The position numbers were made by a program, and so were the translations under genes. From a virus (lineage: Duplodnaviria > Caudoviricetes): 64,000 bases of DNA. This document shows positions 442 to 25,336 of the stretch, in pieces. The DNA lies in IMG/VR virus record IMGVR_UViG_3300011989_000257, positions 288,001-352,000 of that record; one strand, written 5' to 3'. Numbering within the stretch: the stretch's first letter is position 1; every line of letters begins with the position of its first letter. The notes beneath the pieces were generated by a model that was not told the DNA's origin, made no database searches, and worked only from the letters and a program-made list of their open reading frames with translations.

Positions 442-466
442 AACATTTTTCTAAAAATAAAAACAG

Positions 467-538
467 TACTCCCAGAAGGAATTGCACCCTCATCATGACA
501 TCCGTAGTGTCGCATTCTATCTGTTGAACTATGGGAGC
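467..538 (-). tRNA. tRNA-Arg(ACG)
   Basis: Acceptor GCTCCCA/TGGGAGT; anticodon loop CTACGGA; T arm GAGGG-TGCAATT-CCTTC. Confidence 0.85.
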
Positions 539-545
539 AAATCAA

Positions 546-687
546 GGAAGCGTAGGTTTATTATGACTATTGTTTCCCTTTAATCACTTTCACTGCTACT
601 ATACTTCACAATTACAGTGTGGTACTTCAGCCCTTTGCCTAATTTCAAGAAGTAACGTTAATTATTATTCAACTGCTGTACGCTTCC
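546..687 (-). ncRNA. CAGCA-stem ncRNA element 1 (contains a Tyr-like anticodon hairpin)
   Basis: GGAAGCGTA-CAGCAG ... TACGCTTCC 9-bp closing stem; internal CACA-CTGTAAT-TGTG. Confidence 0.7.
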
Positions 688-711
688 AAAAGTATTTTTG
701 TGTCAATTGCG

Positions 712-978
712 TCAACCATAATGTCTAGCAAACTCTATCTCTGCGTCAGCTTCCTCCCTAGGGTTAACTTCTATACCATTATTGCCGTAATATTCACACT
801 TATTATAAATATTGCTAGCAATATTTGGCGATACATGTAGAGTTCTTGCCATATCAATGATTTTTTCTATTTTAGTTTTTGTGGGTGCTTGTTTTCTTTT
901 CTTTTTTACACCACTTCCAAACATTTTTTCTGCTCCATCAAAATAATAATACATATGTTGCTTATGTTTTAAATCCAA
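712..978 (-). CDS. hypothetical protein (start uncertain)
   Basis: 88-aa ORF between ncRNA elements. Confidence 0.55.
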   Translation of the reverse strand: MDLKHKQHMYYYFDGAEKMFGSGVKKKRKQAPTKTKIEKIIDMARTLHVSPNIASNIYNKCEYYGNNGIEVNPREEADAEIEFARHYG

Positions 979-986
979 AATAAAAA

Positions 987-1140
987 AGGAACGGTCAATT
1001 TACTGTCGTGACTAGACATTTGCTCTTTCGAGCGAATGGATAAGTGCCTCGCAATTATGATTTAGTGCTTCGCTTACCCTCATACAAATCTAATTAACAA
1101 AAAGCTTTAATTTAAATTAATAAGACTGCTGTACGTTCCT
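987..1140 (-). ncRNA. CAGCA-stem ncRNA element 2
   Basis: AGGAACG-TACAGCAG ... CGTTCCT followed by a T tract; internal hairpin CATTCGCTC-GAAA-GAGCAAATG. Confidence 0.7.
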
Positions 1141-1294
1141 AAAAAAAATTCCATACGAAGTTCCACCATATGTGGATTTTCTTAACTTGAATGGAATGAT
1201 ATTTCTCCACATCGTGCTCGGAGTCTAACCTTGCGACAGTGAACTTTGATGTGTGCTCTTCTGTTCCATATATCGATTCCGATGTGGAGATTTG

Positions 1295-1898
1295 TGATGG
1301 GGGTGGGATTCGAACCCACGACCTGAAGCTTCATACCACTCTATGTTACCATAGCCAACAAACGATGTTTTTAAACAGCTTATTACACAGCCTCCGCTTA
1401 CTGAGACGTTTGTTGTTGTAGTCTGGAATACATTTTTACCACATTGAAATTCTTGCAAGATACCAATCAGATTCCTATTCCAAGATGTGTTTTCTACTAA
1501 GTACACGGCATTGATAAATTTCAACTTAGGCATTCTTATCAGATGCATCTGAATAGAATGTGAGGGTATTCAATATATTTCCCTCATAACTCCTATATAC
1601 TCTCTACACGTTTATGAGCCTGTGACATTCCAACCTGAATATTACACGAGGTATTCACAGTATTTCATCTTACTCAATTTAGCACGGTATTATCCTCACA
1701 CATTATTGGTTAGTGCCGAGATAAAGTCGCAGACTCGAACCTTGGTCTTCACTATAAGTGACGTGTTTCCTATTACACCAAAATTATCTCGTACAAGGAT
1801 TTCCACCGTTTTAGGGAGTTTCTACTATGGGATTTCTCGCCATAGCATCCAATTTATTTATAGAAGGCTCCTGCTCTGTCCAACTGAGCTACCCCACC
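1295..1898 (-). tRNA. tRNA-Arg(TCT) interrupted by a group I intron (exons 1862-1898 and 1295-1331)
   Basis: 5' exon GGTGGGGTAGCTCAGTTGGACAGAGCAGGAGCCTTCT joined to 3' exon AAGCTTCAGGTCGTGGGTTCGAATCCCACCCCCATCA gives a complete cloverleaf with loop CTTCTAA. Confidence 0.9.
1332..1861 (-). mobile_element. group I intron (530 nt, no homing endonuclease ORF)
   Basis: Follows an exon U and ends in G. Core-like motifs AAAACGGTGGAAATCC (P), AATACCGTGCTAA (Q), GTGTAGAGAGTATA (R) and AAAATGTATTCC (S); R/S can pair GAGTATA/TGTATTC. Confidence 0.85.
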
Positions 1899-1905
1899 AT
1901 TTTTT

Positions 1906-2175
1906 TTATTTCGGTTCAAAATAACTTTCTTTTTTGCATTTGCCAATGCTTTCATATGTAATTGCCCCAAAGTTCTTACTTAGCAGACACATATCATAAT
2001 TATCAAAGTATTTGCAATTTGAGCAAAAACTATTTTCATAACTCTTTACATAATCCTCATCAATAAATGAATAAGAATCATCAACTAATGGCGCTTTTTT
2101 AATTTCATATACAATTATAAGAATCGACACAACAAATAATGATATAATAGTGCCAAGTAAAATTGTCCAAATCAT
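1906..2175 (-). CDS. small membrane-anchored Cys-containing protein
   Basis: Hydrophobic N-terminus followed by CxxC and further Cys. Confidence 0.65.
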   Translation of the reverse strand: MIWTILLGTIISLFVVSILIIVYEIKKAPLVDDSYSFIDEDYVKSYENSFCSNCKYFDNYDMCLLSKNFGAITYESIGKCKKESYFEPK

Positions 2176-2351
2176 ATCCCTTTTCTCATCTTAATTTTTT
2201 TAGCCACAGCCTCAATATCATTATCGAAAGATTTTCTTCTCTCTTCTTCTGACATTGGCTTACTATCTTTCTTATTAAGATAATTGCTTATCACCACAAG
2301 TACAAGTACCATAATAAAGGCAACAAACAATATAAATAATATCCTTCCCAT
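2172..2351 (-). CDS. small membrane protein (59 aa, not in the ORF track)
   Basis: MGRILFILFVAFIMVLVLVVISNYLNKK..., just downstream of promoter 2372-2406; ATGA overlap with the next gene. Confidence 0.6.
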   Translation of the reverse strand: MGRILFILFVAFIMVLVLVVISNYLNKKDSKPMSEEERRKSFDNDIEAVAKKIKMRKGI

Positions 2352-2425
2352 ATACTATAATATTTTCACAATGCAAAGATACTAAAAAAAATTGGAATAA
2401 CCAAATTTTATTAGAACTTTTTTTG

Positions 2426-2513
2426 TGCCCCTAGTAGGACTCAAACCTACACGCTACTATTACTTCACACTAGATTCTAATTCTAGGGTGTCTATCAATT
2501 CCACCATAGGGGC
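2426..2513 (-). tRNA. tRNA-Leu(TAG)
   Basis: Acceptor GCCCCTA/TAGGGGC; CTAGA-ATTAGAA-TCTAG; long variable arm. Confidence 0.85.
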
Positions 2514-2519
2514 AAATAC

Positions 2520-2668
2520 GGAAACAACTTTCGTTTTTAACTGCCGTGTCTACCACTCCACCACCACTTGATATCTAATACTAATAGTGTCAAGTGGGTA
2601 GGATTCGAACCTACGAACCTTTCGGTAGCAGTTCCCTCATAAAAGAAATAATATTGCTGTATGTTTCC
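2520..2668 (-). ncRNA. CAGCA-stem element 3: circularly permuted Leu-like tRNA body opened at the anticodon loop
   Basis: GGAAACA-TACAGCAA ... AACTGC-variable arm-GTAGGTTCGAATCCTAC-CCACTTG-linker-CAAGTGG-TGGTGGAGTGGTAGACAC-GGCAGTT ... TGTTTCC. Confidence 0.85.
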
Positions 2669-2675
2669 TTAAAGG

Positions 2676-2748
2676 TGGGCCCACCCAGATTCGAACTGGG
2701 GATACAGGATTATGAGTCGTGCGTTTTAACCTATTGAACTACAGGCCC
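2676..2748 (-). tRNA. tRNA(CAT), probably Ile2-type
   Basis: Acceptor GGGCCTG/TGGGCCC; loop CTCATAA; one C-C mismatch in the anticodon stem. Confidence 0.8.
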
Positions 2749-3309
2749 TTATTCATTTAATTTTCTTAGACGTTGAATGATTTTTCTAGTTATACCAAAA
2801 TGTTTGGCAACTTTTTCCCAAGATTTCAACTCATTATATTTTTCTACTAATTCATTGTATGATGGATATTTTTCATTTATTTCAGCTTCTCTGCACTCTT
2901 TAGAACAATAAAGTTTACCAGCTACATAATCAAATTCCTTTCCACAGTGCTTACATATCGCTTTTCTTTTTATGCTAGAAAATACTGAGGAATGCTTTGA
3001 CTGCATTTCTTCAATTAAATTATCTATGTTATCTTTATCAAACTGAGGGTTGTGTAACTCTCTATGACAATTTGAACATACAATAATACATTTATCAAGT
3101 TCCTCAAGAATTTTTCCTTTGGTTGTATTCGATAAGTGCCTTGAGTCTAACTGAAAACTCTTAATGCTAGGGTCTAAATGGTGAAATTCTAATGCTGCAA
3201 TATTTTTATCATATCCACACCTTTCACATTTCCCCCCTTTTAATCTGATAATTTCTAATTTCCTACTTAATGCTCTTTCTTTTTGTTTCAAATAATCATT
3301 TGGATTCAT
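2749..3309 (-). CDS. HNH homing endonuclease-like protein
   Basis: CERCG...LEFHH...CSNCHRELH HNH motif, a second CxxC...CxxxC, and a C-terminal HTH-like segment. Confidence 0.85.
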   Translation of the reverse strand: MNPNDYLKQKERALSRKLEIIRLKGGKCERCGYDKNIAALEFHHLDPSIKSFQLDSRHLSNTTKGKILEELDKCIIVCSNCHRELHNPQFDKDNIDNLIEEMQSKHSSVFSSIKRKAICKHCGKEFDYVAGKLYCSKECREAEINEKYPSYNELVEKYNELKSWEKVAKHFGITRKIIQRLRKLNE

Positions 3310-3419
3310 AATACTATTCTTTTTATATATAAATAGTACTTAAACCTCAAAAGTTATTATGATATACATAATTAATTAGTAATATGTTCTAATCATTTTA
3401 TAAATTTAGGCGCTTTAAC

Positions 3420-3452
3420 GTCTGCTGCTCTGACCAACTGAGCTAAAGGCCC
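3420..3452 (-). pseudogene. orphan 5' half of a tRNA (Ile2-like), truncated at the anticodon loop
   Basis: GGGCCTTTAGCTCAGTTGGTCAGAGCAGCAGAC followed by unrelated sequence upstream of the HNH gene. Confidence 0.75.
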
Positions 3453-3462
3453 CTTTATAATT

Positions 3463-3666
3463 TTAAATCATATTATTCCAATATGGATAATTTTTTCTTT
3501 CAGATAATGGTGTATCATACAATTCATAACTTGCACCACAATAAGGGCAACTTGCATTTGTCACCATTGCATCGTCTTCTTCTGACAATTCTTCTCCATT
3601 AATTTCACTGAGCATAAAATTACCTCCAATAATGAGGTCATGCCCACAACGCATACATTTTTCCAT
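3463..3666 (-). CDS. small zinc-ribbon protein (67 aa)
   Basis: MEKCMRCG...CPYCG; the longer ORF-track version runs through tRNAs. Confidence 0.7.
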   Translation of the reverse strand: MEKCMRCGHDLIIGGNFMLSEINGEELSEEDDAMVTNASCPYCGASYELYDTPLSERKNYPYWNNMI

Positions 3667-3689
3667 ATTGTTAGTTTTTAGTTTGATAG

Positions 3690-3803
3690 AGCCGTGTGCT
3701 GGATTCGAACCAACGTTTGTACTTAAACACCCCTTGTGCATATGCTGGTACCTATTGGGGTCGCCTCGTTTGCGCTGTGCTGACCGTCTTACACTAACAC
3801 GGC
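3690..3803 (-). ncRNA. tRNA-like RNA with greatly expanded anticodon domain
   Basis: Perfect GCCGTGT/ACACGGC acceptor and normal D and T arms; ~55 nt replaces the anticodon arm. Confidence 0.7.
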
Positions 3804-3812
3804 AATTTTTAG

Positions 3813-3886
3813 AGCGTGTGAGGAGGCTCGAACTCCCAGCCTTTGCCTTGGCAAGGCAACTATCTAACCAATTGATATACACACGC
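3813..3886 (-). tRNA. tRNA-Gly(GCC)
   Basis: GCGTGTG/CACACGC-T; TTGCC-TTGCCAA-GGCAA. Confidence 0.9.
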
Positions 3887-3892
3887 AAATAA

Positions 3893-4042
3893 GGAAACGT
3901 TTTTTTGTTTATTGATACTGCTCTAGCCAACTGAGCTACCGCCACATATTAGTTGTTGTATTATAGAGTGGCGGGTGGGATTCGAACCCACGACCCGTAG
4001 CTTGGAATGCTTTGTAAACGAATAACCTTGCTGCACGTTTCC
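3893..4042 (-). ncRNA. CAGCA-stem element 4: circularly permuted Gly-like tRNA body opened at the anticodon arm
   Basis: GGAAACGT-GCAGCAA ... TTCCAA-GCTAC-GGGTC-GTGGGTTCGAATCCCAC-CCGCCAC-linker-GTGGCGG-TAGCTCAGTTGGCTAGAGC-AGTATC ... ACGTTTCC. Confidence 0.85.
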
Positions 4043-4046
4043 ACTG

Positions 4047-4118
4047 AGACGATGAACGGAATCGAACCGTCATCCTTTGCTTGGGAAGCAAATACACTAG
4101 CCACTGTGCTACACCGTC
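4047..4118 (-). tRNA. tRNA-Gly(CCC)
   Basis: GACGGTG/CATCGTC-T; TTTGC-TTCCCAA-GCAAA. Confidence 0.85.
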
Positions 4119-4293
4119 AAAATAAGTTCGTTTTTTATAACCGTATAACGAAACCAAAATTCCCACACCTACGATTGGGAAATAGTTTGAAAAGTTTGCA
4201 GATGGATACAACTGGGTATTCCATATACACTTCTCAGGGACTATCCACGTTACGTTGAGCCTCAAATCTCTTTTGAGATTTTTTTTAATTTTG

Positions 4294-4371
4294 AGTGGGA
4301 TAACGGAATCGAACCGTCGCTTGCCTACACCTTGGAAGGGTGTCGTGCGCCTCCAACTACACTAATCCCAC
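4294..4371 (-). tRNA. tRNA-Gly(TCC)
   Basis: GTGGGAT/ATCCCAC-T; ACACC-CTTCCAA-GGTGT. Confidence 0.85.
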
Positions 4372-4566
4372 ATAAGTGAACTAACTTTGTGACATTGCAA
4401 AACCAATGTCTGGTTTGGTATTAGTCCATGAGCTGTTTACCATTATTGCAGCAACCGTTTATCTAACCATTGATGAAGATGAAAGGAGAATGTAGACAAA
4501 ATAAATGGCTGATAAACTTTGGGTTTTAGCATCTACCCACAAGCCTATATTTCTCCTAATTTCGAG

Positions 4567-5586
4567 TTACTGAACAGTAATTACAATGGCTGTTCTACCC
4601 TTCTCAGAGTCAACACCCTTACCTTCTGCACTAGCAACCTTAATACCCCTCTTGGTCAGAAAGTCAGCAACCTTTGCAGCTCTCATTTCAGAAAGCTTCT
4701 GATTGAACTCCTTATTACCTTCTGGTGATGCAGTAGCAGTAACATCTACAATTGAATTCTCGCCAATCTGATTAAGGATAAATACAGCGGCAGGTGTCAA
4801 TGTTGACTTACCGAATTCAAATGGAACAATCCACTTTGCAGTTCCCTCATTTACAGTAACAGTTTTCTCTACTACCTTCTCTACCTCCTTAATCTGAGGC
4901 TCACGACTCTCGCACTCCGCAATCCTACCGTTGAGGTATGAAATCTCATTAAGCATAGCACCTACGTCATAAGTCTTGAAGTGGTGTGTACCATTACCGT
5001 TCTTGAAGTGATAAATAAATGACACATTAACTGCCAACTGTGCGTTGTGCTTGTCGAAATGGATATGACCAGGCTTGTTAAGATTCCAATAAACTGCTGG
5101 AGTTACAACAATTGAAGTTGCCTTATTCTTGCCAAGGTTAAAAGCAAGGTCAAGACCAGTCTTTGCTGTCATGTAGTTCGCTGATGTGTTCCATGTGTGA
5201 AGCCAACCAATACCAGTTACGGTACTAACCTCAAAAACACGTGGCGTACCATTATACCCCCCAAAGATATTGGACAAGTTAAATACCGCATTTGCGCCAA
5301 CATTTGTAGCCTTGATAGCAGTTTTAATGTCACTGAAATGGTTGTCATTCAGTACTGCCAAACCCTCTGCTTGAATACCAAACACAGGAGAAAAATCCTT
5401 CTGTACTTTCAGTCCTACATTAGTGTTGAGTGGGAACATTGAATTGAAGTCAAGAGGTGTAGAAACACCAGCGGTCACTCCAAAACTAATGTTGTCGAAA
5501 ACACGACTGTTCTCAGTCGCAATCTGTGCGTTTGCACTCGTAAATGCACTTACCATGAGTGCAAACATCAAAACAAATTTCTTCAT
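4567..5586 (-). CDS. OmpA-family outer membrane protein (Bacteroidota type)
   Basis: Signal peptide, beta-barrel-like N-terminal region, coiled linker, and C-terminal ASPEG..NQKLSEMRA OmpA motif. Confidence 0.8.
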   Translation of the reverse strand: MKKFVLMFALMVSAFTSANAQIATENSRVFDNISFGVTAGVSTPLDFNSMFPLNTNVGLKVQKDFSPVFGIQAEGLAVLNDNHFSDIKTAIKATNVGANAVFNLSNIFGGYNGTPRVFEVSTVTGIGWLHTWNTSANYMTAKTGLDLAFNLGKNKATSIVVTPAVYWNLNKPGHIHFDKHNAQLAVNVSFIYHFKNGNGTHHFKTYDVGAMLNEISYLNGRIAECESREPQIKEVEKVVEKTVTVNEGTAKWIVPFEFGKSTLTPAAVFILNQIGENSIVDVTATASPEGNKEFNQKLSEMRAAKVADFLTKRGIKVASAEGKGVDSEKGRTAIVITVQ

Positions 5587-5636
5587 AACTTTTCTTTTTT
5601 TTTTGATTTTTGTTTAAATTATTATCACTAGAAAAA

Positions 5637-5746
5637 GGGAACTTTATTTTCGGTGGGATTCGAACCCACAAGTGCATTAAGCACAAAAGATTTCAAGTCT
5701 CTCAAGTCAACCATTCCTTCACGATGAATACTTGCTGTAAGTTCCC
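5637..5746 (-). ncRNA. CAGCA-stem element 5: Ser(TGA)-like tRNA body whose acceptor stem is replaced by the conserved stem
   Basis: GGGAACTT-ACAGCAA ... D arm, AGAGA-CTTGAAA-TCTTT, variable arm GTGC-TTAAT-GCAC, GTGGGTTCGAATCCCAC ... AAGTTCCC. Confidence 0.8.
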
Positions 5747-5755
5747 ACATATTTT

Positions 5756-6079
5756 TTACCAATCTTCAAAAGGGAGGTCATCATAATCTACCTCCTTTCT
5801 AACACCCCACTTATATAAGTAATGTGGTATACCATCAACCAAATCCTTCCTAAAAGTAGGTGTTTGCATTTCAAGTCCTTTTCTAGTAAAGGTCTTTTCT
5901 ATTAATTCAAAAGCCTCAGAACAATATGGATATGTTGTCTCAATTTCAACCTTTAGAAACTGAACATAACTTAAGTCATTCTTTGACTTATCAATCGCCT
6001 CTTGTATCTTCCTTATAAAATAAAGACAATACTTAGGAAAATTAATATCATCCTTTGTTATTTTCTTATATTCGCTCAT
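5756..6079 (-). CDS. hypothetical protein
   Basis: 107-aa ORF ending DDLPFEDW. Confidence 0.7.
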   Translation of the reverse strand: MSEYKKITKDDINFPKYCLYFIRKIQEAIDKSKNDLSYVQFLKVEIETTYPYCSEAFELIEKTFTRKGLEMQTPTFRKDLVDGIPHYLYKWGVRKEVDYDDLPFEDW

Positions 6080-6240
6080 AACATTATCAAATTAAAAACA
6101 TCAACTATCACGTCTGGGTTGCTACTAGAGACCTCACCTCCACCACTACCTCTCCAGGAAGATAACCTGGTACATTCTTTCGATTTTCACGACCCCACCG
6201 TTTATTGGACTGACATGGTAACGATTATTTGATGTTTATG

Positions 6241-6313
6241 TCGAGGTGACAGGGCTCGAACCTGCGACCTCATGGTCCCAAACCACGTGCTCTACCTACT
6301 GAGCTACGCCTCG
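6241..6313 (-). tRNA. tRNA-Pro(TGG)
   Basis: CGAGGCG/CACCTCG-A; CGTGG-TTTGGGA-CCATG; canonical D and T arms. Confidence 0.9.
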
Positions 6314-6459
6314 ATTAGTTACCTTTAATCATAAGGTACTCCTTCTTCTTCTCCAGCATAGATATAAGGGTCTTCATTATCTTTGATGTAATCCCATTCC
6401 CCATATCTATCATAATAACCATCTGCACAAGCCATAATTCATTAATTTTTAAAAAAGTC

Positions 6460-6575
6460 GGAAACATTTTTTCTTACTTAGCTATCACACCTAATGGCGT
6501 GAGTTGGACTTGAACCAACGACCCTTAAATTATGAATTTAATGCTATACCCATTATAAACTTGCTGTATGTTTCC
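6460..6575 (-). ncRNA. CAGCA-stem element 6: circularly permuted tRNA(CAT) body opened in the D loop
   Basis: GGAAACAT-ACAGCAA ... GGTATAGC-A-TTAAA-TTCATAA-TTTAA-GGGTC-GTTGGTTCAAGTCCAAC-TCACGCC-ATTA-GGTGTGA-TAGCTA ... ATGTTTCC. Confidence 0.85.
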
Positions 6576-6643
6576 TTTTATGTTTTAGCTACATTTATTT
6601 TATCTTTGCAAAGATATATATTTTTTTTGTGAATTCCAAATTT

Positions 6644-7030
6644 TTAATCAATTTTTTTCAATGGAACGAACAAATCATACCCATTATCATCTTGAAAATG
6701 ATTTATTTTGGCATCTTGCCATTCACCGAATTTATATCTTTTATATTCAAAGCACTTGCCATTCCAAGTTGCTTTATCCGCATTTCTGCAATCACCTTCA
6801 TAAGTTGTACCAATTTCAAGTTTGTCCTTTGGTATTGCTCCACAACGTATGAGGTTTTTCACAATAACCTCTTCATATATATGAGGGTCATCAACCTTTG
6901 GTATACTTGGTATGTCATCAATTGTTTTGAATGGTTTTAGGTTTTTGAACCTCTCTATTCTTTCGATGTCTTCTTTTGCTTTTCTTTCACGAAGTTTTTG
7001 TTTTATTTTTTCTAATTTCTCACTTTCCAT
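6644..7030 (-). CDS. hypothetical protein
   Basis: 128-aa ORF with ATG start. Confidence 0.75.
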   Translation of the reverse strand: MESEKLEKIKQKLRERKAKEDIERIERFKNLKPFKTIDDIPSIPKVDDPHIYEEVIVKNLIRCGAIPKDKLEIGTTYEGDCRNADKATWNGKCFEYKRYKFGEWQDAKINHFQDDNGYDLFVPLKKID

Positions 7031-7213
7031 TTATCTAACCTCTATTCTATCTCCACATTGCGGACATGTGATAAACTTTCCCATATACGTTTCACCAGCG
7101 TATGACTGTACACCGTATGAGCATTCCTTCTCCTCAATGTCAGTATCATCATACTTCAGCATTGAGCCACAGCGATAACACTTAACTACATTTCCTTTAA
7201 TCTTCCTTACCAT
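7031..7213 (-). CDS. small zinc-ribbon protein (60 aa)
   Basis: MVRKIKGNVVKCYRCG...CPQCG; the upstream ORF extension overlaps tRNA-His. Confidence 0.7.
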   Translation of the reverse strand: MVRKIKGNVVKCYRCGSMLKYDDTDIEEKECSYGVQSYAGETYMGKFITCPQCGDRIEVR

Positions 7214-7236
7214 AACACTATATATTTTGTATTTTG

Positions 7237-7310
7237 GGGGCAGTGAGGGATTCAAACCCACGTAAACAAGTGCCACAAACTTGCGCCTAAGTCTCTCGGC
7301 CAACTGTCCC
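7237..7310 (-). tRNA. tRNA-His(GTG)
   Basis: G-1:C73 pair; CAAGT-TTGTGGC-ACTTG; T arm present. Confidence 0.85.
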
Positions 7311-7498
7311 ATATTTGAACAGTAGTATATACCATTACGAGCAGATACCATTTACAGTTACTTTCAAGTTGAAACCCATCTACTTTTATGCGCACTTATT
7401 ATGTAGTCAACTTCTTCCTTTACTTGTCTGTTCTTCTGAGTGGATTGAATTTTATTCCCTACTTGGGGAAAAACCGTGCCACCATCTAAAAAAGGGTG

Positions 7499-7581
7499 TG
7501 GACTGTATCGGACTCGAACCGATGTTTCGCAGTTTGCTACGCCTTATACCGCATTTGCTCACCTGGTTGCATCAACAGCCC
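7499..7581 (-). ncRNA. tRNA-like RNA with a 14-nt anticodon-position loop
   Basis: GGGCTGT/ACAGTCC-A; ATCGG-TTCGAGT-CCGAT; TGCGGT-(14 nt)-ACTGCG. Confidence 0.65.
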
Positions 7582-7587
7582 ATAAAC

Positions 7588-7707
7588 AGGAATCTTTTTT
7601 AACTTTCGGTAGTGTTGGGCTTGAACCAACGACCTCTTGGTAAAATCCAAGGCTCTAACCAACTGAGCTAACTGTCGTGCGTTATTACCTATTGCTGTAA
7701 GATTCCT
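7588..7707 (-). ncRNA. CAGCA-stem element 7: colinear tRNA body with degenerate acceptor and a 6-nt anticodon loop
   Basis: AGGAATCTT-ACAGCAA ... TAGCTCAGTTGGTTAGAGC-CTTGG-ATTTTA-CCAAG-AGGTC-GTTGGTTCAAGCCCAAC ... AAGATTCCT. Confidence 0.8.
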
Positions 7708-7710
7708 TTG

Positions 7711-7792
7711 TCTGGAGGGTTGGATTCAAACCAACGAACTCTGCTATCTCATCACGGCTAGTTTGCAGAACTATGCTGCCGATTCCTCCAGA
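7711..7792 (-). ncRNA. tRNA-like RNA (intact acceptor and T arm, aberrant D and anticodon arms)
   Basis: CTGGAGG/CCTCCAG; GTTGG-TTTGAAT-CCAAC; TTCTGC-(20 nt)-GCAGAG. Confidence 0.55.
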
Positions 7793-7952
7793 TTTGTAAA
7801 AACCATTCTACACCCAACACTTCCAGTTGGTTCCTACATCTACGTCTCTCTCCATTATGACCCATAGATTACACGATTCCGTCTCTAACGTCTCATAGGA
7901 TTATAAAGCAGGTCATCTGTCCTATGCCTTTTAGAACCTCGAATGATTTTTG

Positions 7953-8025
7953 TCAGGGAACTTGGACTCGAACCAAGAACAGCTGGTCTCCAAAGCCAGT
8001 CGTCTACCTATTGACGTACACCCTG
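7953..8025 (-). tRNA. tRNA-Pro(TGG), second and atypical copy
   Basis: CAGGGTG/TTCCCTG-A; loop TTTGGAG; one mismatch each in the acceptor and anticodon stems. Confidence 0.7.
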
Positions 8026-8154
8026 AGTTAAAATGCCAACACTCTAGAATTCTTGCATTATATCCTCTATAGTCTTATGCTGCTCTTATTGTAATTCCAT
8101 TTATGGATACGATTCAATAATTAGAGGTTGCCTAAAGACTTGTGTTAACATTTG

Positions 8155-8240
8155 TCGGAGGAGAGGGACTCGAACCCCCAGTGTTTCTGATGTGCTGGTT
8201 TTACAGACCAGTGCTAGTCCACCATCCTAGCTGCCCTCCG
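8155..8240 (-). tRNA. tRNA-Tyr(GTA) with C1:G72
   Basis: CGGAGGG/TCCTCCG-A; CTGGT-CTGTAAA-ACCAG; long variable region. Confidence 0.85.
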
Positions 8241-8277
8241 ATTAAGCATAGGTTTCTCAACCACAATCCTTTCCTTG

Positions 8278-8634
8278 TTACTTAAATTTATATTCTATAA
8301 CATAGACATTTTTATTACCTCTGCGGTATTGTTCAATCTTTACATCATTATACATTTCTTTATGTCTTTCAGTAAAACCGCTTCTGATGAACTCAAAAAA
8401 TTTTTTCTCTTTTTCGTTGTCTGTTACGATGTATATGTCCTTAAATATATTTGTTTCTGGAACTCTACATGTCATACTTCTAACCCCTCTGAACTTGTTA
8501 TTGGTTGCCCAACCACCTTGTTCAATAAGGCCAATCGTAAACTCTTCCCAAATGGGAATATCAACTTTTAAAAATAAATTTTGTCCAAATACATCTTTTT
8601 CATTTAAATACTCTTTTGTAATTGCTTCTCTCAT
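8278..8634 (-). CDS. hypothetical protein
   Basis: 118-aa ORF. Confidence 0.7.
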   Translation of the reverse strand: MREAITKEYLNEKDVFGQNLFLKVDIPIWEEFTIGLIEQGGWATNNKFRGVRSMTCRVPETNIFKDIYIVTDNEKEKKFFEFIRSGFTERHKEMYNDVKIEQYRRGNKNVYVIEYKFK

Positions 8635-8781
8635 TTGCTTCTTTATTTAGAACTACTAATGTAACTATTAATATCTTCTAATTCACCTTCAAGTTTAGCA
8701 AGCTTTTCTTTATGCCAATTAATCTTGTTTACTATAGTATTTTTTCTGTCGTTTAATATTTTTAAGTCACTATTATTCATT

Positions 8782-9219
8782 CTATTTAAATTTTCCTAGC
8801 CTTATAGCCTCAACAAGATAGTTATATACCGTTTCCCAATCTGTCTCGGCATCGAATCCGAACTTATCGTCTATTCCTACATTAAAATACGTCTTTTCAT
8901 CAAAGCAAGACAATTCGTTATTCTTTGTCTCGCTATTGCTGTTAACCATATCGAAGCTAATGCCATTAGCTTTAAAATATTCCAGATATTCATTTATCGA
9001 TTCCTTATGACTAGATGTCCAGAGTATGAGACTGATGTTCCTAGCATAACTCATTATCTGAAGTGCCTCCTTTGAGAATGGATACCACTTATGGTTTTCC
9101 TTCTCGTGGTAGCAAGCTTCAAATATCGTATCGTGGATGTCCACAAGCACATATATATGCTCCCAATTACGGTCTTTCATACGCTTGAAAGCGTTGTCGA
9201 AACTTTTCTCTATACTCAT
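8782..9219 (-). CDS. HAD-like hydrolase (degenerate motif I)
   Basis: VDIHDTI, LILWTS and GIDDK motifs. Confidence 0.6.
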   Translation of the reverse strand: MSIEKSFDNAFKRMKDRNWEHIYVLVDIHDTIFEACYHEKENHKWYPFSKEALQIMSYARNISLILWTSSHKESINEYLEYFKANGISFDMVNSNSETKNNELSCFDEKTYFNVGIDDKFGFDAETDWETVYNYLVEAIRLGKFK

Positions 9220-9236
9220 AACATTATATTATTTGC

Positions 9237-9306
9237 CACACTAAAATGGACTCGAACCACCTACTTCAGAACGCCGTTCTGCGTGCTACCGTTACACCAT
9301 AGGTGA
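9237..9306 (-). pseudogene. degenerate Gln-like tRNA with a 5-nt anticodon loop
   Basis: TGGTGTAACGGTAGCAC D arm; CAGAA-CGGCG-TTCTG; GGTTCGAGTCC; acceptor poorly paired. Confidence 0.6.
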
Positions 9307-9439
9307 ATTGACCTCAACTTAACCATAATCTCCACGAGTTAACATTGGAAACTCATAATGTGAAAATAAGCAAGAATCGAACACTGCTTTGTTGAATTTA
9401 CCACAATCTCGGTCAGCGAACGGAGTCGAACCGTATTCG

Positions 9440-9512
9440 TTGGGATTGAGGGAATCGAACCCCCACAAGCCAAGAGCCAGAATCTTGCGTACTACCTTTA
9501 TACTAAACCCCA
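9440..9512 (-). tRNA. tRNA-Gln(CTG)
   Basis: TGGGGTT/AATCCCA; CAAGA-TTCTGGC-TCTTG. Confidence 0.85.
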
Positions 9513-9628
9513 AAGTAAGCTGAAACTCTAGCTAGTAACGTATCATGGCAGCATCCTTACCTATTCTCTCCACCTCGCAGTGACGTGGGGCAATTTAGCC
9601 AATCAACGTAGTTTCAGCTATGTTGTAA

Positions 9629-9706
9629 GGGAACAATAAAAATTCGTTTATCTAAAACCCAAATCTAGTAACTAATTTTATCAATAATTACTTGCTGTAT
9701 GTTCCC
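9629..9706 (-). ncRNA. CAGCA-stem element 8: minimal form with an isolated Pro-like anticodon hairpin
   Basis: GGGAACA-TACAGCAA ... CTAGA-TTTGGGT-TTTAG ... TGTTCCC. Confidence 0.75.
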
Positions 9707-11341: not shown

Positions 11342-11346
11342 ATTTA

Positions 11347-15640: not shown

Positions 15641-17005
15641 TTAGAAGAACTTTTTCTTATCCTCTGCTGCCTTGATGTTCATCTTTGGCTTCATGAAGAA
15701 CTTGATATCAACTGTTGGCTCAATGAGCTTAACAATCTCATCCATTGGTTTGTAGGCATCTGGTGCTTCGTCTAGTGTTTTCTCGTCAGCAGTGGTGGTA
15801 TAGATACCTGCATCTGCCATCTGCTTCTGAAAGTCCTCTACGTTAAGCTGCTGATGGGCTTTCATCCTTGAGAGCGCCCTACCACAGCCATGCGGAGCTG
15901 TACAGTTCCAATCTTCATTTGATTTGCCTTCACATATTGAAATTCCATCCCTCATATTAAATGGTATGATTACTTTCTCTCCCTCATAAGCACGAATAGC
16001 ACCCTTACGAATCATCATATTTGGTGTACCCATCAATGCCTTGAAATCATAATCAATATAATTGTGAGTAGTAGCAATAAAATCGATTGGCTTACCACCA
16101 TCTGACATCTTTCGATAAATCTCAATCAACTGTTCATGAATCACCTCATGATTAAGTTTAGCATAAGTCTGAGCAATTAACACATCTACAAGATAGCCCA
16201 TAAGCTGGTCACCGTTCAAGTATCCTGGAATCTTACGTGATAAGTACTCCTCTCTTGCTGCATCAATCTCAGCCTTAATCTTCTGCTTGTCAGTATTCTT
16301 CTCCTTGACCTTATCCTCAAGCATCTTCATTTCCTCTCTTGAAACTACCATGCTTCTTGCTATCTTGTCCCAATAGTTGAATACTGCCAAACCTAGCTTA
16401 CGTGAGCCACAGTGTACGCACATGCAGTACTTACCCAACTCATCGTTGGCATCGTACTCTACGAAGTGATTACCTCCACCAACTGAGCCTATAGCCTTGA
16501 TAAAATCACCATAACCTATACGTACACGCTTACACCACTTCTCCAAATCCATTTCGTTGTTGAAGTAGATTGCATAATCAGCAAACTTTGGATAAAGAGA
16601 ACACAATCTGTCCATAGCCGAATTAACAGCCTTGGTGATACGCTTCCACTCAATCTTGGACTTATCGTTGATAGAGAAACCAAATGGAATCTCTTTACGA
16701 ATTTTGTGCTCAAACTCCTTCATCTTCTCCTCGACAATTGGTTTATCGAAGAAAGTAGCTGATATGGTACAACCGATATCGCAACCTACGTGCTGTGGAT
16801 TAACGTGGTCTGTCTCAATATTGACAGGACATGAGAATCCAATCACAATACCCTTACCATCGTGGCAGTCAGGCATAATTCTAATCTTCTTATCCTTGAA
16901 TGCCCTACAATCTGCTATACCGTATATGGTTGATATTGCGGTCTCCTCCACGTTATCAGTAAAGACCTTCACATCCTTACAATACTGTCCTTTAATTTCT
17001 AACAT
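15641..17005 (-). CDS. rtcB: RtcB RNA ligase (3'-phosphate/5'-OH)
   Basis: MPDCH, VGCDIGC, GGGNHFVE, VHCGSR, HNY, RKGA, PHGCGR and DEAPDAYK motifs. Confidence 0.95.
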   Translation of the reverse strand: MLEIKGQYCKDVKVFTDNVEETAISTIYGIADCRAFKDKKIRIMPDCHDGKGIVIGFSCPVNIETDHVNPQHVGCDIGCTISATFFDKPIVEEKMKEFEHKIRKEIPFGFSINDKSKIEWKRITKAVNSAMDRLCSLYPKFADYAIYFNNEMDLEKWCKRVRIGYGDFIKAIGSVGGGNHFVEYDANDELGKYCMCVHCGSRKLGLAVFNYWDKIARSMVVSREEMKMLEDKVKEKNTDKQKIKAEIDAAREEYLSRKIPGYLNGDQLMGYLVDVLIAQTYAKLNHEVIHEQLIEIYRKMSDGGKPIDFIATTHNYIDYDFKALMGTPNMMIRKGAIRAYEGEKVIIPFNMRDGISICEGKSNEDWNCTAPHGCGRALSRMKAHQQLNVEDFQKQMADAGIYTTTADEKTLDEAPDAYKPMDEIVKLIEPTVDIKFFMKPKMNIKAAEDKKKFF

Positions 17006-23653: not shown

Positions 23654-25336
23654 CTACAACTGAATGTAGTTAAGAATCTCTTGCGTAAGAGCCTTTTCAA
23701 CAAGTTCCTCTGCGGTAAGATTCCTTGCCTTTCCAGTCTTCTCATCAATCACCTTATCCTCTCCAAGCAATGTAGTGATAATACTTCCATCAAATCCACT
23801 AAGGAAAGTACATCCTGGTTCAATGCTCTTACCCTCAAAATGAGTAATTCCATGTCTTGAAACACAATCCCACCAAATGAATTTCATGTTATCCACAAAT
23901 TCCTCTGGGAAAACTGTCTTCAACGACTTCTTGGAGTACTCATAATTGGTTTCTTGGTTACGTGGAGAGTCATACCAACGATTAGTTGGATTAAACTCCA
24001 TATCACTTACCACCAATATAGTAGTAGGATACTGCTCCAATGGAATCTCTGGATGCTGTCGCCTAATCTTAATGATTTCGTCAACGGCAGATTGGAAATT
24101 TGTACCACCACATCCAACACTTGGAAGGTTCATTACCCTTTCACAGAACGACTCACCCTTCATGTCGTATGGATAAGAGGTGTTGTCGAACATAATGAGC
24201 TTATTGTGGAAAGCTCCAGTGTTAAGGCTAGAAAAGAATATTGCCAAAGATGTTGCAATATCTGAACAGTATACGTCCTTCAATCCAGTAACTGGCTGAT
24301 TCATTGAACCACTAGTGTCAAGGCAACACCATACATTCTCTGTAATCTTGCCGCCATCACGAGCCTTATCTACAAGTCCATTAAACTGCGCATCAATGGT
24401 ATGCTTAACCTCAATAGGTAGTTTCTTATTTGAAGTAGTATAATATCTTCTTGAACCAATACCGTATTCACGAAGTTTCTTTGAAAGCTCAAATACATAA
24501 CCAGTAAACTTAGCCACTGGCTGCTGCATTATCCATTGTGTGTAATTATCTTTCAAACCATGATTTGAAAGGAACTTACTAGTGACAAGTAAGTTCAATG
24601 CACGTCCTGGAATGTGATTCCAATTCAGTTCCTTATAATTACGAGAGCAAATCAATTTTTGGAAATCATGCGCCTTACCACTCACTTTCATCTTATTGTA
24701 TTCCTTATAAGAAATACCCATTTGATTTGCAAATGCCTTTGCCAAGTCATTTGTGATAGTAGTCCACTCTGTCTTACACTTACTCTGAGACTTGATACGA
24801 GGCATATACTTCTTAATCAAATCAACATGAGTGTCACAAAGCAAACCTTGTGCAATCACCTCAAACATAGCTTTTTGGTTTAAGCACTTAACATTCTCCT
24901 TAATGTCATAGAACATCAAAGTCCACAAGTCCTTCCAAGAGCCAACAAGTGGCAATGCCCAAATGTTCTTGTAGAATGCATCTGGTTGTTCTTGAGCAAT
25001 CCAAAGCAAACGCTTGAATGACTCATCACGAGCACCTTGTCCATTCTGAACCTTATCAGTCTCATTATCCGTGTTCACCTTAACCTTGCGAGTTACCATA
25101 CGCAAATAGAATGGGAAACGAAGTGCTGCTTCAGCATTCTCACCCCAAATGGTTGCTTGGTCAGCAAATACTTCCGCAAGTGTACGCCCTCTGAAGTTAC
25201 CAGCCTTACCAAATTGGTCAACAATTGCACTTCCAGTCGAAACAAGTGTTTTTGCTCCATTCTCTGTCAATGTTGAACTCTCGAAACCTACTGCATTAAG
25301 GAATGCGTTTGTCTTTGTCGCTGTCTTTGTATTCAT
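23654..25336 (-). CDS. DUF2828-like helical protein with C-terminal vWA domain (Ro60/TROVE-like architecture)
   Basis: TLTENGA..STG N-terminus, GQGARD, VGSWKDL, KYMPR; MIDAS-type DTSGSM, GGTNF and VSDMEF. Confidence 0.75.
   Translation of the reverse strand: MNTKTATKTNAFLNAVGFESSTLTENGAKTLVSTGSAIVDQFGKAGNFRGRTLAEVFADQATIWGENAEAALRFPFYLRMVTRKVKVNTDNETDKVQNGQGARDESFKRLLWIAQEQPDAFYKNIWALPLVGSWKDLWTLMFYDIKENVKCLNQKAMFEVIAQGLLCDTHVDLIKKYMPRIKSQSKCKTEWTTITNDLAKAFANQMGISYKEYNKMKVSGKAHDFQKLICSRNYKELNWNHIPGRALNLLVTSKFLSNHGLKDNYTQWIMQQPVAKFTGYVFELSKKLREYGIGSRRYYTTSNKKLPIEVKHTIDAQFNGLVDKARDGGKITENVWCCLDTSGSMNQPVTGLKDVYCSDIATSLAIFFSSLNTGAFHNKLIMFDNTSYPYDMKGESFCERVMNLPSVGCGGTNFQSAVDEIIKIRRQHPEIPLEQYPTTILVVSDMEFNPTNRWYDSPRNQETNYEYSKKSLKTVFPEEFVDNMKFIWWDCVSRHGITHFEGKSIEPGCTFLSGFDGSIITTLLGEDKVIDEKTGKARNLTAEELVEKALTQEILNYIQL

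What the first reader, a model, noticed from the sequence alone, without database searches (positions are those of the whole stretch)
2520..4042. Circularly permuted tRNA bodies opened at the anticodon arm (elements 3 and 4)
Seen: in both elements the T arm and acceptor 3' strand come before the acceptor 5' strand and D arm. Perfect 7-bp acceptors (CAAGTGG/CCACTTG; GTGGCGG/CCGCCAC) are closed by ~20-nt linkers, and the anticodon stem leads into the CAGCA handle. Element 3 is Leu-like (long variable arm, TGAGGG remnant); element 4 is Gly-like (TTCCAA remnant). Established: T-before-D order with a closed acceptor is the YrlA topology. Inference: two independent captures of different tRNAs into the same scaffold. 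A less likely alternative is a permuted tRNA gene matured by circularisation.
Basis: partly seen in the sequence, partly recalled or inferred. Interest (0 to 1): 0.85.

Follow-up and report, generated by a model that had tools for sequence, protein, structure and literature searches.

The report
Rotated tRNAs on phage Ro60-type handle
Two small RNA genes in a 412-kb phage are whole tRNAs written in rotated order and clamped by a conserved "handle"; they are most likely tRNA look-alikes that partner the phage's Ro60-like protein, not working tRNAs, and their relatives appear to show how such mimics arise from tRNA genes.

Summary
Minus-strand elements at 2520-2668 (E3) and 3893-4042 (E4) have the order T arm, acceptor 3' strand, linker, acceptor 5' strand, D arm. 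The acceptors are perfect 7-bp helices and the linkers are 20 and 22 nt. Rejoined at the anticodon stem, ARAGORN calls them tRNA-Leu(GAG) and tRNA-Gly(UCC). Compensatory changes in orthologues support every arm.

One correction: the 7-nt anticodon loops are intact, not remnants. The break lies in or just after the 5' strand of the anticodon stem.

Both belong to a family of 13 RNAs in this genome, and dozens in relatives. All share a covarying terminal stem followed by RCAGCAA. The phage's only Ro60-like protein (Pfam DUF2828/DUF7788; its model matches Ro60 structures) has 29-37%-identical homologues in unrelated phages. In five of six such neighbourhoods, arrays of the same handle RNAs lie within about 0.06-1.5 kb of the gene.

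Orthologues of E3 and E4 with tetraloop-closed acceptors, and E3 orthologues with no anticodon loop, argue against a translating tRNA.

Best reading: a new variant of the Y-RNA/YrlA kind. It fails Rfam YrlA, and I found no description of it in the papers searched. This scan has noted the same handle family on other DNA before (22 findings).

The parts
2520..2668 (-). Element 3: 149-nt handle RNA carrying a circularly permuted class II tRNA body (Leu-GAG-like)
2654..2668 (-). E3 5' strand of terminal stem P1 (GGAAACA, 2668-2662) and conserved handle ACAGCAA (2660-2654)
   Evidence: P1 3' strand TGTTTCC is at 2526-2520
2634..2640 (-). E3 intact 7-nt anticodon loop ATGAGGG (U33, GAG, G37), lying as a bulge between P2 (TTTCTTTT/AAAAACGAAA) and the anticodon stem AACTGC/GCAGTT
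   Evidence: The loop is absent from the G005/G007/G009 orthologues
2564..2597 (-). E3 acceptor helix CCACTTG/CAAGTGG closed by discriminator A plus a 19-nt AU-rich spacer
   Evidence: The G004 orthologue has the compensatory pair CCACATG/CATGTGG
2598..2614 (-). E3 T arm GTAGG-TTCGAAT-CCTAC
2545..2561 (-). E3 D arm
3893..4042 (-). Element 4: 150-nt handle RNA carrying a circularly permuted class I tRNA body (Gly-UCC-like)
4028..4042 (-). E4 5' strand of P1 (GGAAACGT, 4042-4035) and handle GCAGCAA (4034-4028)
   Evidence: P1 3' strand ACGTTTCC is at 3900-3893
3997..4011 (-). E4 anticodon hairpin: AGC, loop ATTCCAA (U33, UCC, A37), GCTAC. The outer pairs 27-43 and 28-42 are made by G and T of AGT at 3919-3917, giving a three-way junction with P2 (GTTTA 4019-4015 / TAAAC 3911-3907)
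   Evidence: (both outer pairs covary)
3939..3974 (-). E4 acceptor helix CCGCCAC/GTGGCGG closed by discriminator T plus a 21-nt AU-rich spacer
   Evidence: All 7 pairs covary among orthologues
3975..3991 (-). E4 T arm GTGGG-TTCGAAT-CCCAC
3920..3936 (-). E4 D arm GCTC-AGTTGGCTA-GAGC
23654..25336 (-). 560-aa Ro60-like protein (Pfam DUF2828 + DUF7788, PHROG 850 'RNA-binding protein'); inferred partner of the handle
15641..17005 (-). RtcB RNA ligase; a possible functional associate by analogy with rsr-yrlBA-rtcBA operons
546..9706 (-). Array holding the eight handle RNAs of the window (546-687, 987-1140, 2520-2668, 3893-4042, 5637-5746, 6460-6575, 7588-7707, 9629-9706), interleaved with tRNA genes

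Best explanation
E3 and E4 are non-coding RNAs of a phage-borne Y-RNA-like family.

Shared handle. The 5' and 3' ends pair in a 6-9 bp stem (P1). A nearly invariant single-stranded RCAGCAA follows the 5' strand. By inference, this handle is the docking site for the phage's Ro60-like ring protein.

Cargo. The rest of each RNA is a complete tRNA body in rotated order, which should fold into the usual L shape. The acceptor end is closed by a 20-22-nt spacer. The handle emerges from the 5' side of the anticodon stem, so the anticodon loop stays displayed.

Release (inferred). Both RNAs sit 3-5 nt after one tRNA gene and 6 nt before the next. Ordinary RNase P/RNase Z cutting of the tRNA array would therefore release them. 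Their 7-bp acceptor plus discriminator may also be nicked by RNase P and receive CCA, as shown for M. smegmatis YrlA.

Function (inferred, not shown). They present a tRNA shape on the Ro60-like particle. This would either tether tRNA-binding enzymes or act as bait for tRNA-cutting host defence enzymes, alongside the phage RtcB ligase.

Origin (inferred). A handle RNA recombined with two tandem copies of a tRNA gene, so that the linker is the former intergenic spacer. Later streamlining removed the linker and, in the E3 lineage, the anticodon loop.
For: 1. Family. The motif occurs 13 times in the window against 4.0 expected. All 8 true copies, and 13 genome-wide, are on the tRNA strand with covarying P1. 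6-11 copies occur in each of four larger related phage records (one in an 11%-complete fragment), with 0 in the reversed-pattern control.
2. Permuted cloverleaf. It is supported by ARAGORN on de-permuted sequences, by the YrlA model core match, and by covariation.
3. Partner. The only Ro60-like protein in the genome is 23654-25336. Its AF2 model has Ro60/Rsr/phage Ro60 as the top 12 Foldseek hits, all full length, E 1e-6 to 1e-4. There is no Pfam TROVE hit in the genome. Homologues at 29-37% identity in unrelated smaller phage contigs have 3-6 handle RNAs within 0.06-1.5 kb of the gene in L076, L077/78, L079, L080 and L084. Observed counts were 4, 6 and 4 against 0.08, 0.58 and 0.22 in shuffles.
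4. Not a translating tRNA:
- E3 orthologues in G005/G007/G009 have 6-bp acceptors closed by 4-6 nt loops and lack the anticodon loop.
- The G004 E3 orthologue has lost U33.
- E4-type RNAs with 4-7 nt acceptor loops are intermixed with long-linker forms.
- The same handle carries bare anticodon hairpins and non-tRNA cargo.
- The phage already has a standard tRNA-Gly(UCC).
5. Precedent. YrlA mimics the T, D and acceptor arms. M. smegmatis YrlA has a 7-bp acceptor, is cut by RNase P in vitro, and is cleaved and receives CCA in vivo (PMC4201824). Phage Ro60 binds phage Y-like RNAs (PMC12135203).
Against: - No binding, expression or end-mapping data exist. The protein-RNA link rests on co-location only.
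- In this genome the Ro60-like gene lies 19.6-21 kb from E4 and E3, not next to them.
- The AF2 model is of moderate quality (pLDDT 70; TM 0.32-0.37 to Ro60).
- RF02553 scores are below the cut-off and the YrlA GNCGAA motif is absent.
- The intact anticodon loops, correct discriminators (A73 for Leu, U73 for Gly) and long spacers of E3 and E4 are exactly what a functional permuted tRNA gene would keep.
- In the nearest-neighbour model the proposed folds are about 8 kcal/mol above the MFE.
Confidence: 0.72

Rival explanations
1. E3 and E4 are working permuted (or split) tRNA genes. RNase P and RNase Z remove the linker, CCA is added, the handle is removed or tolerated, and the phage RtcB or another ligase joins the halves. 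The product is tRNA-Leu(GAG) and a second tRNA-Gly(UCC).
For: - Perfect 7-bp acceptors, discriminators matching Leu (A73) and Gly (U73), complete anticodon loops with U33 and R37, and 20-22-nt unstructured spacers.
- RtcB is encoded 12-13 kb away.
- The phage has no other tRNA-Leu(GAG).
- Purifying selection acts on all arms.
Against: - The termini carry no bulge-helix-bulge motif and no ribozyme. I found no route to excise about 55 nt of handle from the anticodon stem.
- Ends left by RNase P and RNase Z (5'-P, 3'-OH) are not RtcB substrates.
- Orthologues have tetraloop-closed 5-6 bp acceptors and, for E3, no anticodon loop.
- U33 is lost in G004.
- E4 orthologues read UCC, UUC or UAC, and the discriminators of the UUC and UAC forms do not fit Glu or Val.
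- A standard tRNA-Gly(UCC) is present.
- The same handle sits on non-tRNA cargo.
Confidence: 0.1
2. The Y-like RNP reading holds, but the specific role is bait. The displayed anticodon loop is a decoy substrate or inhibitor for host anticodon nucleases. It is held in place by P2, P1 and the Ro60-like ring so that RtcB can reseal it. This is a sub-hypothesis of function nested inside the best explanation, so its confidence is conditional on that reading and is not to be added to the others.
For: - The UUCCAA loop of E4-type RNAs is conserved across phages whose neighbouring protein is only 61-68% identical.
- Short family members carry only anticodon-like hairpins: 79 of 111 RNAs have a tRNA-arm-like 7-nt-loop hairpin (a count that includes T loops) against 22 in shuffles.
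- Orthologous hairpins differ mainly in the anticodon triplet: GTG, GCT, GTA, GCA, GTC.
- RtcB and a large tRNA set share the genome.
- Jumbo-phage RNA repair is read as counter-defence in PMC7824862.
Against: - E3 orthologues drop the anticodon loop altogether, so the loop is not essential for every member.
- No nuclease is identified.
- Nothing here tests cleavage.
Confidence: 0.3
3. They are decaying by-products of recombination in a tRNA array (pseudo-tRNAs flanked by a short repeat) with no function of their own.
For: tRNA arrays in these phages are fluid. Elements are gained, lost and moved between relatives, and modules such as CCTCCCC-spacer-GGGGAGG are shared between different elements.
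Against: - 14 and 9 base pairs show compensatory double changes.
- The handle is invariant across distant phages and linked to one protein family.
- Orthologues are retained in many genomes.
Confidence: 0.04

Closest known systems
YrlA-type Y RNAs with Ro60/Rsr (Rfam RF02553; Chen et al. 2014, PMC4201824; phage phiLo Ro60-Yrl, PMC12135203)
   Same: - The RNA 5' and 3' ends pair in a stem with a conserved single-stranded motif on the 5' strand.
- The tRNA-like domain runs T arm, closed acceptor, D arm.
- The genome encodes a Ro60-fold protein and RtcB.
- M. smegmatis YrlA also has a 7-bp acceptor cut by RNase P.
   Different: - The handle is RCAGCAA, not GNCGAA(N)G.
- RF02553 scores 39 and 15 bits against a cut-off of 69, matching only the tRNA core.
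- The protein is Pfam DUF2828/DUF7788, not TROVE.
- The acceptor is closed by 20-22 nt rather than 2-3 nt.
- A full anticodon loop is retained.
- There are many paralogues per genome with interchangeable cargo.
- The gene is about 20 kb from the RNAs in this genome.
Circularly permuted tRNA genes of Cyanidioschyzon merolae and some archaea (from my own knowledge: Soma et al. 2007)
   Same: The 3' half (T arm, acceptor 3' strand) precedes the 5' half, with an intervening spacer. The flanks pair with each other. The discriminator is retained and no CCA is encoded.
   Different: - Those flanks form a bulge-helix-bulge cut by the splicing endonuclease and are circularised. Here the flanks form P1, a conserved 7-nt motif and P2, with no BHB.
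- Here the orthologues tolerate loss of the free acceptor end and of the anticodon loop.
Class I RNAs of dictyostelid amoebae (Rfam RF01414; Kjellin et al. 2021, PMC7919456)
   Same: - A short RNA with a 6-bp covarying terminal stem and a conserved, unstructured 11-nt motif next to the 5' strand.
- That motif has near-invariant T, C, C, A, A at positions 3, 6, 9, 10 and 11. This fits nnTnnCnnCAA, as in ACTTACAGCAA of element 5.
- The rest of the RNA is variable.
   Different: - The RF01414 model gives no hit on any element.
- Class I RNAs are eukaryotic and their known binder is the RRM protein Rnp1A.
- They carry no tRNA cargo.
- The resemblance is a lead only.
Two-piece (permuted) tmRNA
   Same: A permuted tRNA-like domain in bacteria and phages, with the acceptor 3' piece first.
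   Different: There is no mRNA-like reading frame and no ARAGORN tmRNA call on these elements. The Rfam permuted-tmRNA score is only 14 bits. The phage has its own standard tmRNA elsewhere.

Membership tests
YrlA / bacterial Y RNA (RF02553) | tRNA-like domain in the order T arm, closed acceptor, D arm | tested here: met
   The YrlA model aligns to positions 23-86 of E4. ARAGORN calls the de-permuted RNAs as tRNAs. Covariation supports the arms.
YrlA / bacterial Y RNA (RF02553) | Score at or above the Rfam gathering threshold (69 bits) | tested here: not met
   E4 scores 39.2 bits and E3 15.5 bits. Only the tRNA core aligns convincingly.
YrlA / bacterial Y RNA (RF02553) | Ro60-binding 5'-strand motif GNCGAAN0-1G (PMC4201824) | tested here: not met
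   The 5' strand reads GGAAAC(A/G)T(A/G)CAGCAA in E3 and E4. There is no GNCGAA there, and the conserved motif is RCAGCAA.
YrlA / bacterial Y RNA (RF02553) | Encoded beside a Ro60/TROVE gene and bound by it | tested here: inconclusive
   A Ro60-fold protein is present but lies 19.6-21 kb away and has no Pfam TROVE hit. Handle RNAs are directly adjacent to its homologues in other phages. Binding cannot be tested here.
Permuted tRNA genes (C. merolae type) | 3' half, spacer, 5' half, giving a canonical cloverleaf after rotation | tested here: met
   One search gives tRNA-Leu(gag) and tRNA-Gly(tcc).
Permuted tRNA genes (C. merolae type) | Bulge-helix-bulge motif formed by leader and trailer at the junction | tested here: not met
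   The flanks form a 7-8 bp P1, a one-sided 13-15-nt loop with RCAGCAA, and P2. There is no 3-4-3 BHB.
Permuted tRNA genes (C. merolae type) | Orthologues keep a free acceptor end and a usable anticodon loop | tested here: not met
   Acceptors are closed by 4-7 nt loops in G005/G007/G009 and in L062/L068-70. The loop is deleted in three E3 orthologues. U33 is lost in G004.
Permuted tRNA genes (C. merolae type) | Circular RNA intermediate and a mature, charged tRNA | not testable with these tools
   This needs RT-PCR or RNA-seq across the junction and acid-gel Northerns.
CAGCAA-handle RNAs linked to DUF2828-type Ro60-like proteins (not found in Rfam 15 or in the papers searched) | 6-9 bp terminal stem whose sequence covaries | tested here: met
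   Examples: GGAAACAT/ATGTTTCC, GGGAACTT/AAGTTCCC, GGAAGCGT/ACGCTTCC, AGTCCGC/GCGGACT.
CAGCAA-handle RNAs linked to DUF2828-type Ro60-like proteins (not found in Rfam 15 or in the papers searched) | RCAGCAA 0-2 nt after the 5' strand of the stem | tested here: met
   E3 has ACAGCAA and E4 has GCAGCAA. The same holds across 100+ elements.
CAGCAA-handle RNAs linked to DUF2828-type Ro60-like proteins (not found in Rfam 15 or in the papers searched) | Co-occurrence with the Ro60-like gene | tested here: met
   The same genome holds both. All 10 related records hold both, although those records were found through the protein. Five of six distant neighbourhoods have handle RNAs within 1.5 kb.
Dictyostelid Class I RNAs (RF01414) | Match to the Rfam covariance model | tested here: not met
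   One search gave no hit on any element. The best genome hit scored 17.8 bits elsewhere.

The most novel reading that the evidence does not exclude
These phages keep a diversifying library of tRNA parts, from bare anticodon hairpins to whole rotated tRNAs, mounted on one handle for a Ro60-like ring protein. They use it against tRNA-targeting host immunity, as bait resealed by RtcB or as a tether that brings enzymes to damaged tRNAs. E3 and E4, together with their streamlined orthologues, would then be a living series showing how YrlA-type tRNA mimics are born from tandem tRNA genes.
Probability: 0.3. Interest if true: 0.85.

Novelty: new variant of a known kind. Interest (0 to 1): 0.66.

Why it matters
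Ro60/Y-RNA particles are conserved from bacteria to humans, yet it remains unclear why bacterial Y RNAs imitate tRNA and where that mimicry came from.

Here the mimic is still a complete tRNA. It keeps its anticodon loop, discriminator and a spacer-closed acceptor. Orthologues in sister phages have lost exactly the parts that only a translating tRNA needs. That gives a testable origin for YrlA-type domains. It also indicates which tRNA features the particle needs: the elbow and acceptor helix always, the anticodon loop only in some members.

The finding also ties an uncharacterised protein family (DUF2828/DUF7788, also present in eukaryotes) to a defined RNA ligand. That makes binding and structural experiments straightforward.

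For annotation, these loci are missed or miscalled by tRNA finders.

Tried and rejected
- Self-cleaving ribozyme flanks. I checked hammerhead, twister, pistol and hatchet by eye and scanned all of Rfam at E<=5-10. Nothing matched on the elements.
- Kink-turn in the handle. The 3' strand opposite RCAGCAA is A-rich and not conserved, with no tandem G-A pairs.
- CRISPR repeat, retron msr/msd, or terminal inverted repeats of a mobile element. There is no RT or Cas gene in the window. The terminal stems covary instead of being conserved as sequence.
- Recent copy of one of the phage's own tRNAs. The best identity is 65-76%, which is background for tRNAs.
- Megablast of 1-12000 against the phage collection gave no hit.
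- phmmer of the Ro60-like protein against PDB sequences gave nothing useful. Only the fold search worked.
- A pattern scan for more E4 orthologues in IMG/VR added only two identical new copies, both UCC. The claim that the E4 anticodon is hypervariable is therefore weak: UCC in most, with UUC and UAC once each.
- The RF01414 (Class I RNA) model gave no hit.
- Thermodynamic folding alone is weak. z-scores are -2.0 and -2.6, and the proposed folds are about 8 kcal/mol above the MFE.
- ARAGORN with the intron option on 3671-3812 gives only a doubtful tRNA-Leu(aag) with a 34-nt intron.
Full report
SETTING

The window is part of a single 412,514-bp virus record with 34.5% G+C. It encodes IF3, DnaJ, a sigma-70-type factor, TyrRS, SSB, TelA, RtcB and about 41 tRNAs, a tmRNA and an amber-suppressor-like tRNA. 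All lie on the minus strand in this region. Everything described below is on the minus strand.

THE OBSERVATION

E3 (2668..2520, 149 nt) and E4 (4042..3893, 150 nt) read as follows:
- a terminal-stem 5' strand
- RCAGCAA
- a short helix strand (P2)
- a 7-nt anticodon loop and the anticodon-stem 3' strand
- the variable region and T arm
- the acceptor 3' strand, a discriminator and a 19-21-nt AU-rich spacer
- the acceptor 5' strand and D arm
- the anticodon-stem 5' strand, the P2 3' strand and the terminal-stem 3' strand

All parts were checked base by base. The quoted acceptors (CCACTTG/CAAGTGG and CCGCCAC/GTGGCGG) are perfect 7-bp helices.

When the two halves are rejoined in a script, ARAGORN calls tRNA-Leu(gag) with a long variable arm and tRNA-Gly(tcc). 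The Rfam YrlA model aligns its T-acceptor-D core to E4 at 39.2 bits, E 1e-7 on the local search. Its consensus shows that T-before-D with a closed acceptor is indeed the YrlA layout.

The loops ATGAGGG and ATTCCAA are complete anticodon loops (U33, a purine at 37), not remnants. In E3 the loop is a 7-nt bulge between P2 and the anticodon stem, so the opening lies at about 31/32. In E4 the leader supplies pairs 29-31 (AGC/GCT) and the 5' half supplies pairs 27-28. This gives a three-way junction opened at 28/29.

IS THE FOLD REAL?

Orthologues and close paralogues were recovered from ten related IMG/VR records and from further phages, using a Ro60-like protein and an OmpA-like protein as anchors.

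On a 10-sequence E4-type alignment, 91.5% of cells pair, against 33-45% when partners are slid. Fourteen pairs carry changes on both sides. All seven acceptor pairs, three T-stem pairs and both outer anticodon-stem pairs (27-43 and 28-42) covary.

On five E3 orthologues, 92.3% pair against 35-47% slid. Nine pairs have double changes, in the acceptor, D, T, variable and anticodon stems.

Free-energy support alone is modest. z-scores are -2.0 and -2.6, and the proposed folds lie about 8 kcal/mol above the MFE. The elements recur in independent assemblies, so they are not chimeras.

THE FAMILY

E3 and E4 are two of eight elements in the window and 13 in the genome. All share a 6-9 bp terminal stem whose sequence differs between copies but stays paired, followed within 0-2 nt by RCAGCAA. 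The motif occurs 13 times against 4.0 expected. Four larger related records carry 6-11 copies each on one strand, and an 11%-complete fragment carries one. The reversed-pattern control gave none.

The cargo varies:
- whole tRNAs opened at the anticodon stem (E3, E4 and a Thr-UGU-like paralogue at genome 277605-277738)
- a tRNA opened in the D loop (6460-6575)
- colinear tRNA-like bodies (5637-5746 and 7588-7707)
- bare anticodon-like hairpins
- non-tRNA cargo

A hairpin with a 7-nt loop, U at loop position 2 and a purine at position 6 occurs in 79 of 111 distinct elements, against 22 in shuffles. This count includes T loops.

THE LIKELY PARTNER

ORF 23654-25336 (560 aa) matches PHROG 850 'RNA-binding protein' and Pfam DUF2828 plus DUF7788. 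Its AlphaFold2 model (pLDDT 70) has Ro60 structures as its top 12 Foldseek hits. These include Xenopus and human Ro60, D. radiodurans Rsr and Thermus phage phiLo Ro60. All align over the full length at E 1e-6 to 1e-4, although TM is only 0.32-0.37. The genome has no Pfam TROVE hit and no YrlA above cut-off.

The key test was the genomic context of distant homologues found by an exhaustive HMMER search. In contigs of unrelated, smaller phages the homologues are only 29-37% identical, yet handle RNAs lie close to the gene:

| Contig | Handle RNAs | Position relative to the gene |
|---|---|---|
| L076 | 4 | 62-381 nt after the stop |
| L077/L078 | 6 | 1 upstream, 5 downstream |
| L079 | 3 | from 58 nt after the stop |
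| L080 | 3, with two tRNAs | within about 400 nt |
| L084 | 3, TCAGCAAT type | about 1.1 kb downstream |

A sixth neighbourhood, L082, had none nearby. Observed counts were 4, 6 and 4, against 0.08, 0.58 and 0.22 in shuffles. The terminal stems there have quite different sequences (for example AGTCCGC/GCGGACT), while CAGCAA is kept.

That the protein binds the handle is an inference from this co-location and from Ro60/Y-RNA precedent (PMC4201824, PMC12135203). It is not shown.

WHY NOT A WORKING TRNA?

The features that look most tRNA-like are intact loops, A73 for the Leu-like body, U73 for the Gly-like body, and long spacers. These are not kept by relatives.
- E3 orthologues in G005, G007 and G009 have 6-bp acceptors closed by 4-6 nt and lack the anticodon loop altogether. 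The G004/G006 orthologue keeps the loop but has A at position 33.
- E4-type RNAs in more distant phages have 5-6 bp acceptors with tetra- to heptaloops, intermixed with long-linker forms.
- E4 orthologues read UCC in most, but UUC and UAC once each on an otherwise identical loop. The discriminators of those two do not fit Glu or Val.
- The phage already has a standard tRNA-Gly(UCC). Leu(GAG) is not needed alongside Leu UAG, AAG, UAA and CAA.
- The flanks form no bulge-helix-bulge, and no ribozyme matched. I therefore see no route to remove about 55 nt of handle from the anticodon stem.

PROCESSING AND ROLE (INFERRED)

E3 begins 5 nt after tRNA-Met and ends 6 nt (GUAUUU) before tRNA-Leu(UAG). 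E4 begins 3 nt after tRNA-Gly(CCC) and ends 6 nt (UUAUUU) before tRNA-Gly(GCC). RNase Z and RNase P acting on the neighbouring tRNAs would therefore release both RNAs.

The 7-bp acceptor with a discriminator and a free spacer may itself be nicked by RNase P and receive CCA. This is documented for M. smegmatis YrlA, the one YrlA with a 7-bp acceptor. The two halves would stay together through more than 25 base pairs.

With RtcB in the same genome, two roles are most plausible: a tRNA-shaped tether on the Ro60-like particle, or a bait for tRNA-cutting host enzymes. The Ro60/Y-RNA/RtcB operon responds to damaged tRNAs in Salmonella (PMC7790460, seen in the abstract only), and jumbo-phage RNA repair is read as counter-defence. 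I cannot separate the two roles here.

ORIGIN (INFERRED)

The cargo bodies are not recent copies of the phage's own tRNAs; identity is 76% or less. Recombination of a handle RNA with two tandem copies of one tRNA gene would give exactly this layout. The linker would be the former intergenic spacer. The partly duplicated 5' strand of the anticodon stem in E4 (AGC in the leader, GTATC in the 5' half) would be a footprint of that event.

The streamlined orthologues would then be later stages. An acceptor-plus-spacer module (CCTCCCC-ACAAAT...CTT-GGGGAGG) is shared by an E4-type RNA in one phage and by D-loop-opened RNAs in others. This shows module exchange.

COMPARISON WITH KNOWN FAMILIES, AND NOVELTY

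In working principle the closest family is YrlA/Y RNA with Ro60. Membership in RF02553 fails on score and on the GNCGAA motif, and the protein is not a Pfam TROVE member. C. merolae-type permuted tRNA genes share the gene order but not the BHB junction or the conservation pattern.

Dictyostelid Class I RNAs share the stem-plus-adjacent-motif architecture. Their conserved positions fit the handle, but RF01414 finds none of the elements.

Searches for DUF2828, DUF7788, permuted tRNA with phage, and Ro60 with phage and Y RNA found no description of this RNA family. The scan's own notebook lists 22 earlier findings of the same handle family in other genomes, and a follow-up on element 6 of this window with the same reading. 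I used those as leads. The fold, the partner and the context were re-tested here.

I class the finding as a new variant of a known kind.

Noticed in passing
window 3683-3800 (-): A tRNA-like gene with a 7-bp acceptor (GCCGTGT/ACACGGC), D and T arms and a 34-45-nt insertion in the anticodon region. Standard ARAGORN and Rfam miss it. ARAGORN with the intron option gives a doubtful tRNA-Leu(aag) with a 34-nt intron.
   Followed up: partly
window 2674-3455 (-): An orphan tRNA 5' half (3455-3405) is followed by an HNH endonuclease ORF (3309-2749; PHROG HNH, E 7e-24) and then a complete tRNA-Met(CAT) at 2748-2674. This looks like a homing-endonuclease cassette inserted at a tRNA gene.
   Followed up: partly
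window 1298-1900 (-): tRNA halves (5' half near 1900-1868, T arm and acceptor near 1340-1298) are separated by about 500 nt. This is probably a group I intron in a tRNA anticodon loop.
   Followed up: no
genome 277605-277738 (-), outside the window: A thirteenth handle RNA: a permuted Thr(UGU)-like tRNA body with a 6-nt acceptor loop and only a 6-bp P1. Its leader is 75-78% identical to that of E4, and orthologues occur in G001-G003.
   Followed up: partly
L023(-)3239-3300, L026 6948-7010, L028 5164-5226, L029(-)9115-9176, L030(-)12655-12719: Short handle RNAs that appear orthologous carry one hairpin, TCAAA-CUnnnAA-UUUGA. Its anticodon triplet differs between strains (GTG, GCT, GTA, GCA, GTC) while the stem is nearly constant.
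   Followed up: partly
L065 2790-2935; L025 5225-5351; L031(-)13259-13386; L058(-)1051-1185: The same acceptor-plus-spacer module (CCTCCCC-ACAAAT..CTT-GGGGAGG) appears in an E4-type RNA of one phage and in element-6-position RNAs of others (D-loop-opened in L025 and L031). This points to recombination between family members or a shared source tRNA pair.
   Followed up: no
genome 271506-271597 and 276262-276568 (-): The phage carries a tRNA with anticodon CTA (amber suppressor-like) and its own tmRNA with tag GENIDSPAYAMAIAA.
   Followed up: no
L077 995-1059 and L078 6510-6574: Sub-threshold twister-P1 ribozyme matches (29.7 bits, cut-off 67) lie a few kb upstream of the distant Ro60-like gene. 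A partial HEARO RNA match (44.7 bits) sits at the end of L074.
   Followed up: no
window 17011-17892 and 20564-21469 (-): A radical-SAM protein with a weak QueE-like match and an NAD-synthase-type PP-loop enzyme lie between RtcB and TyrRS. They may belong to a nucleotide or tRNA modification pathway.
   Followed up: no
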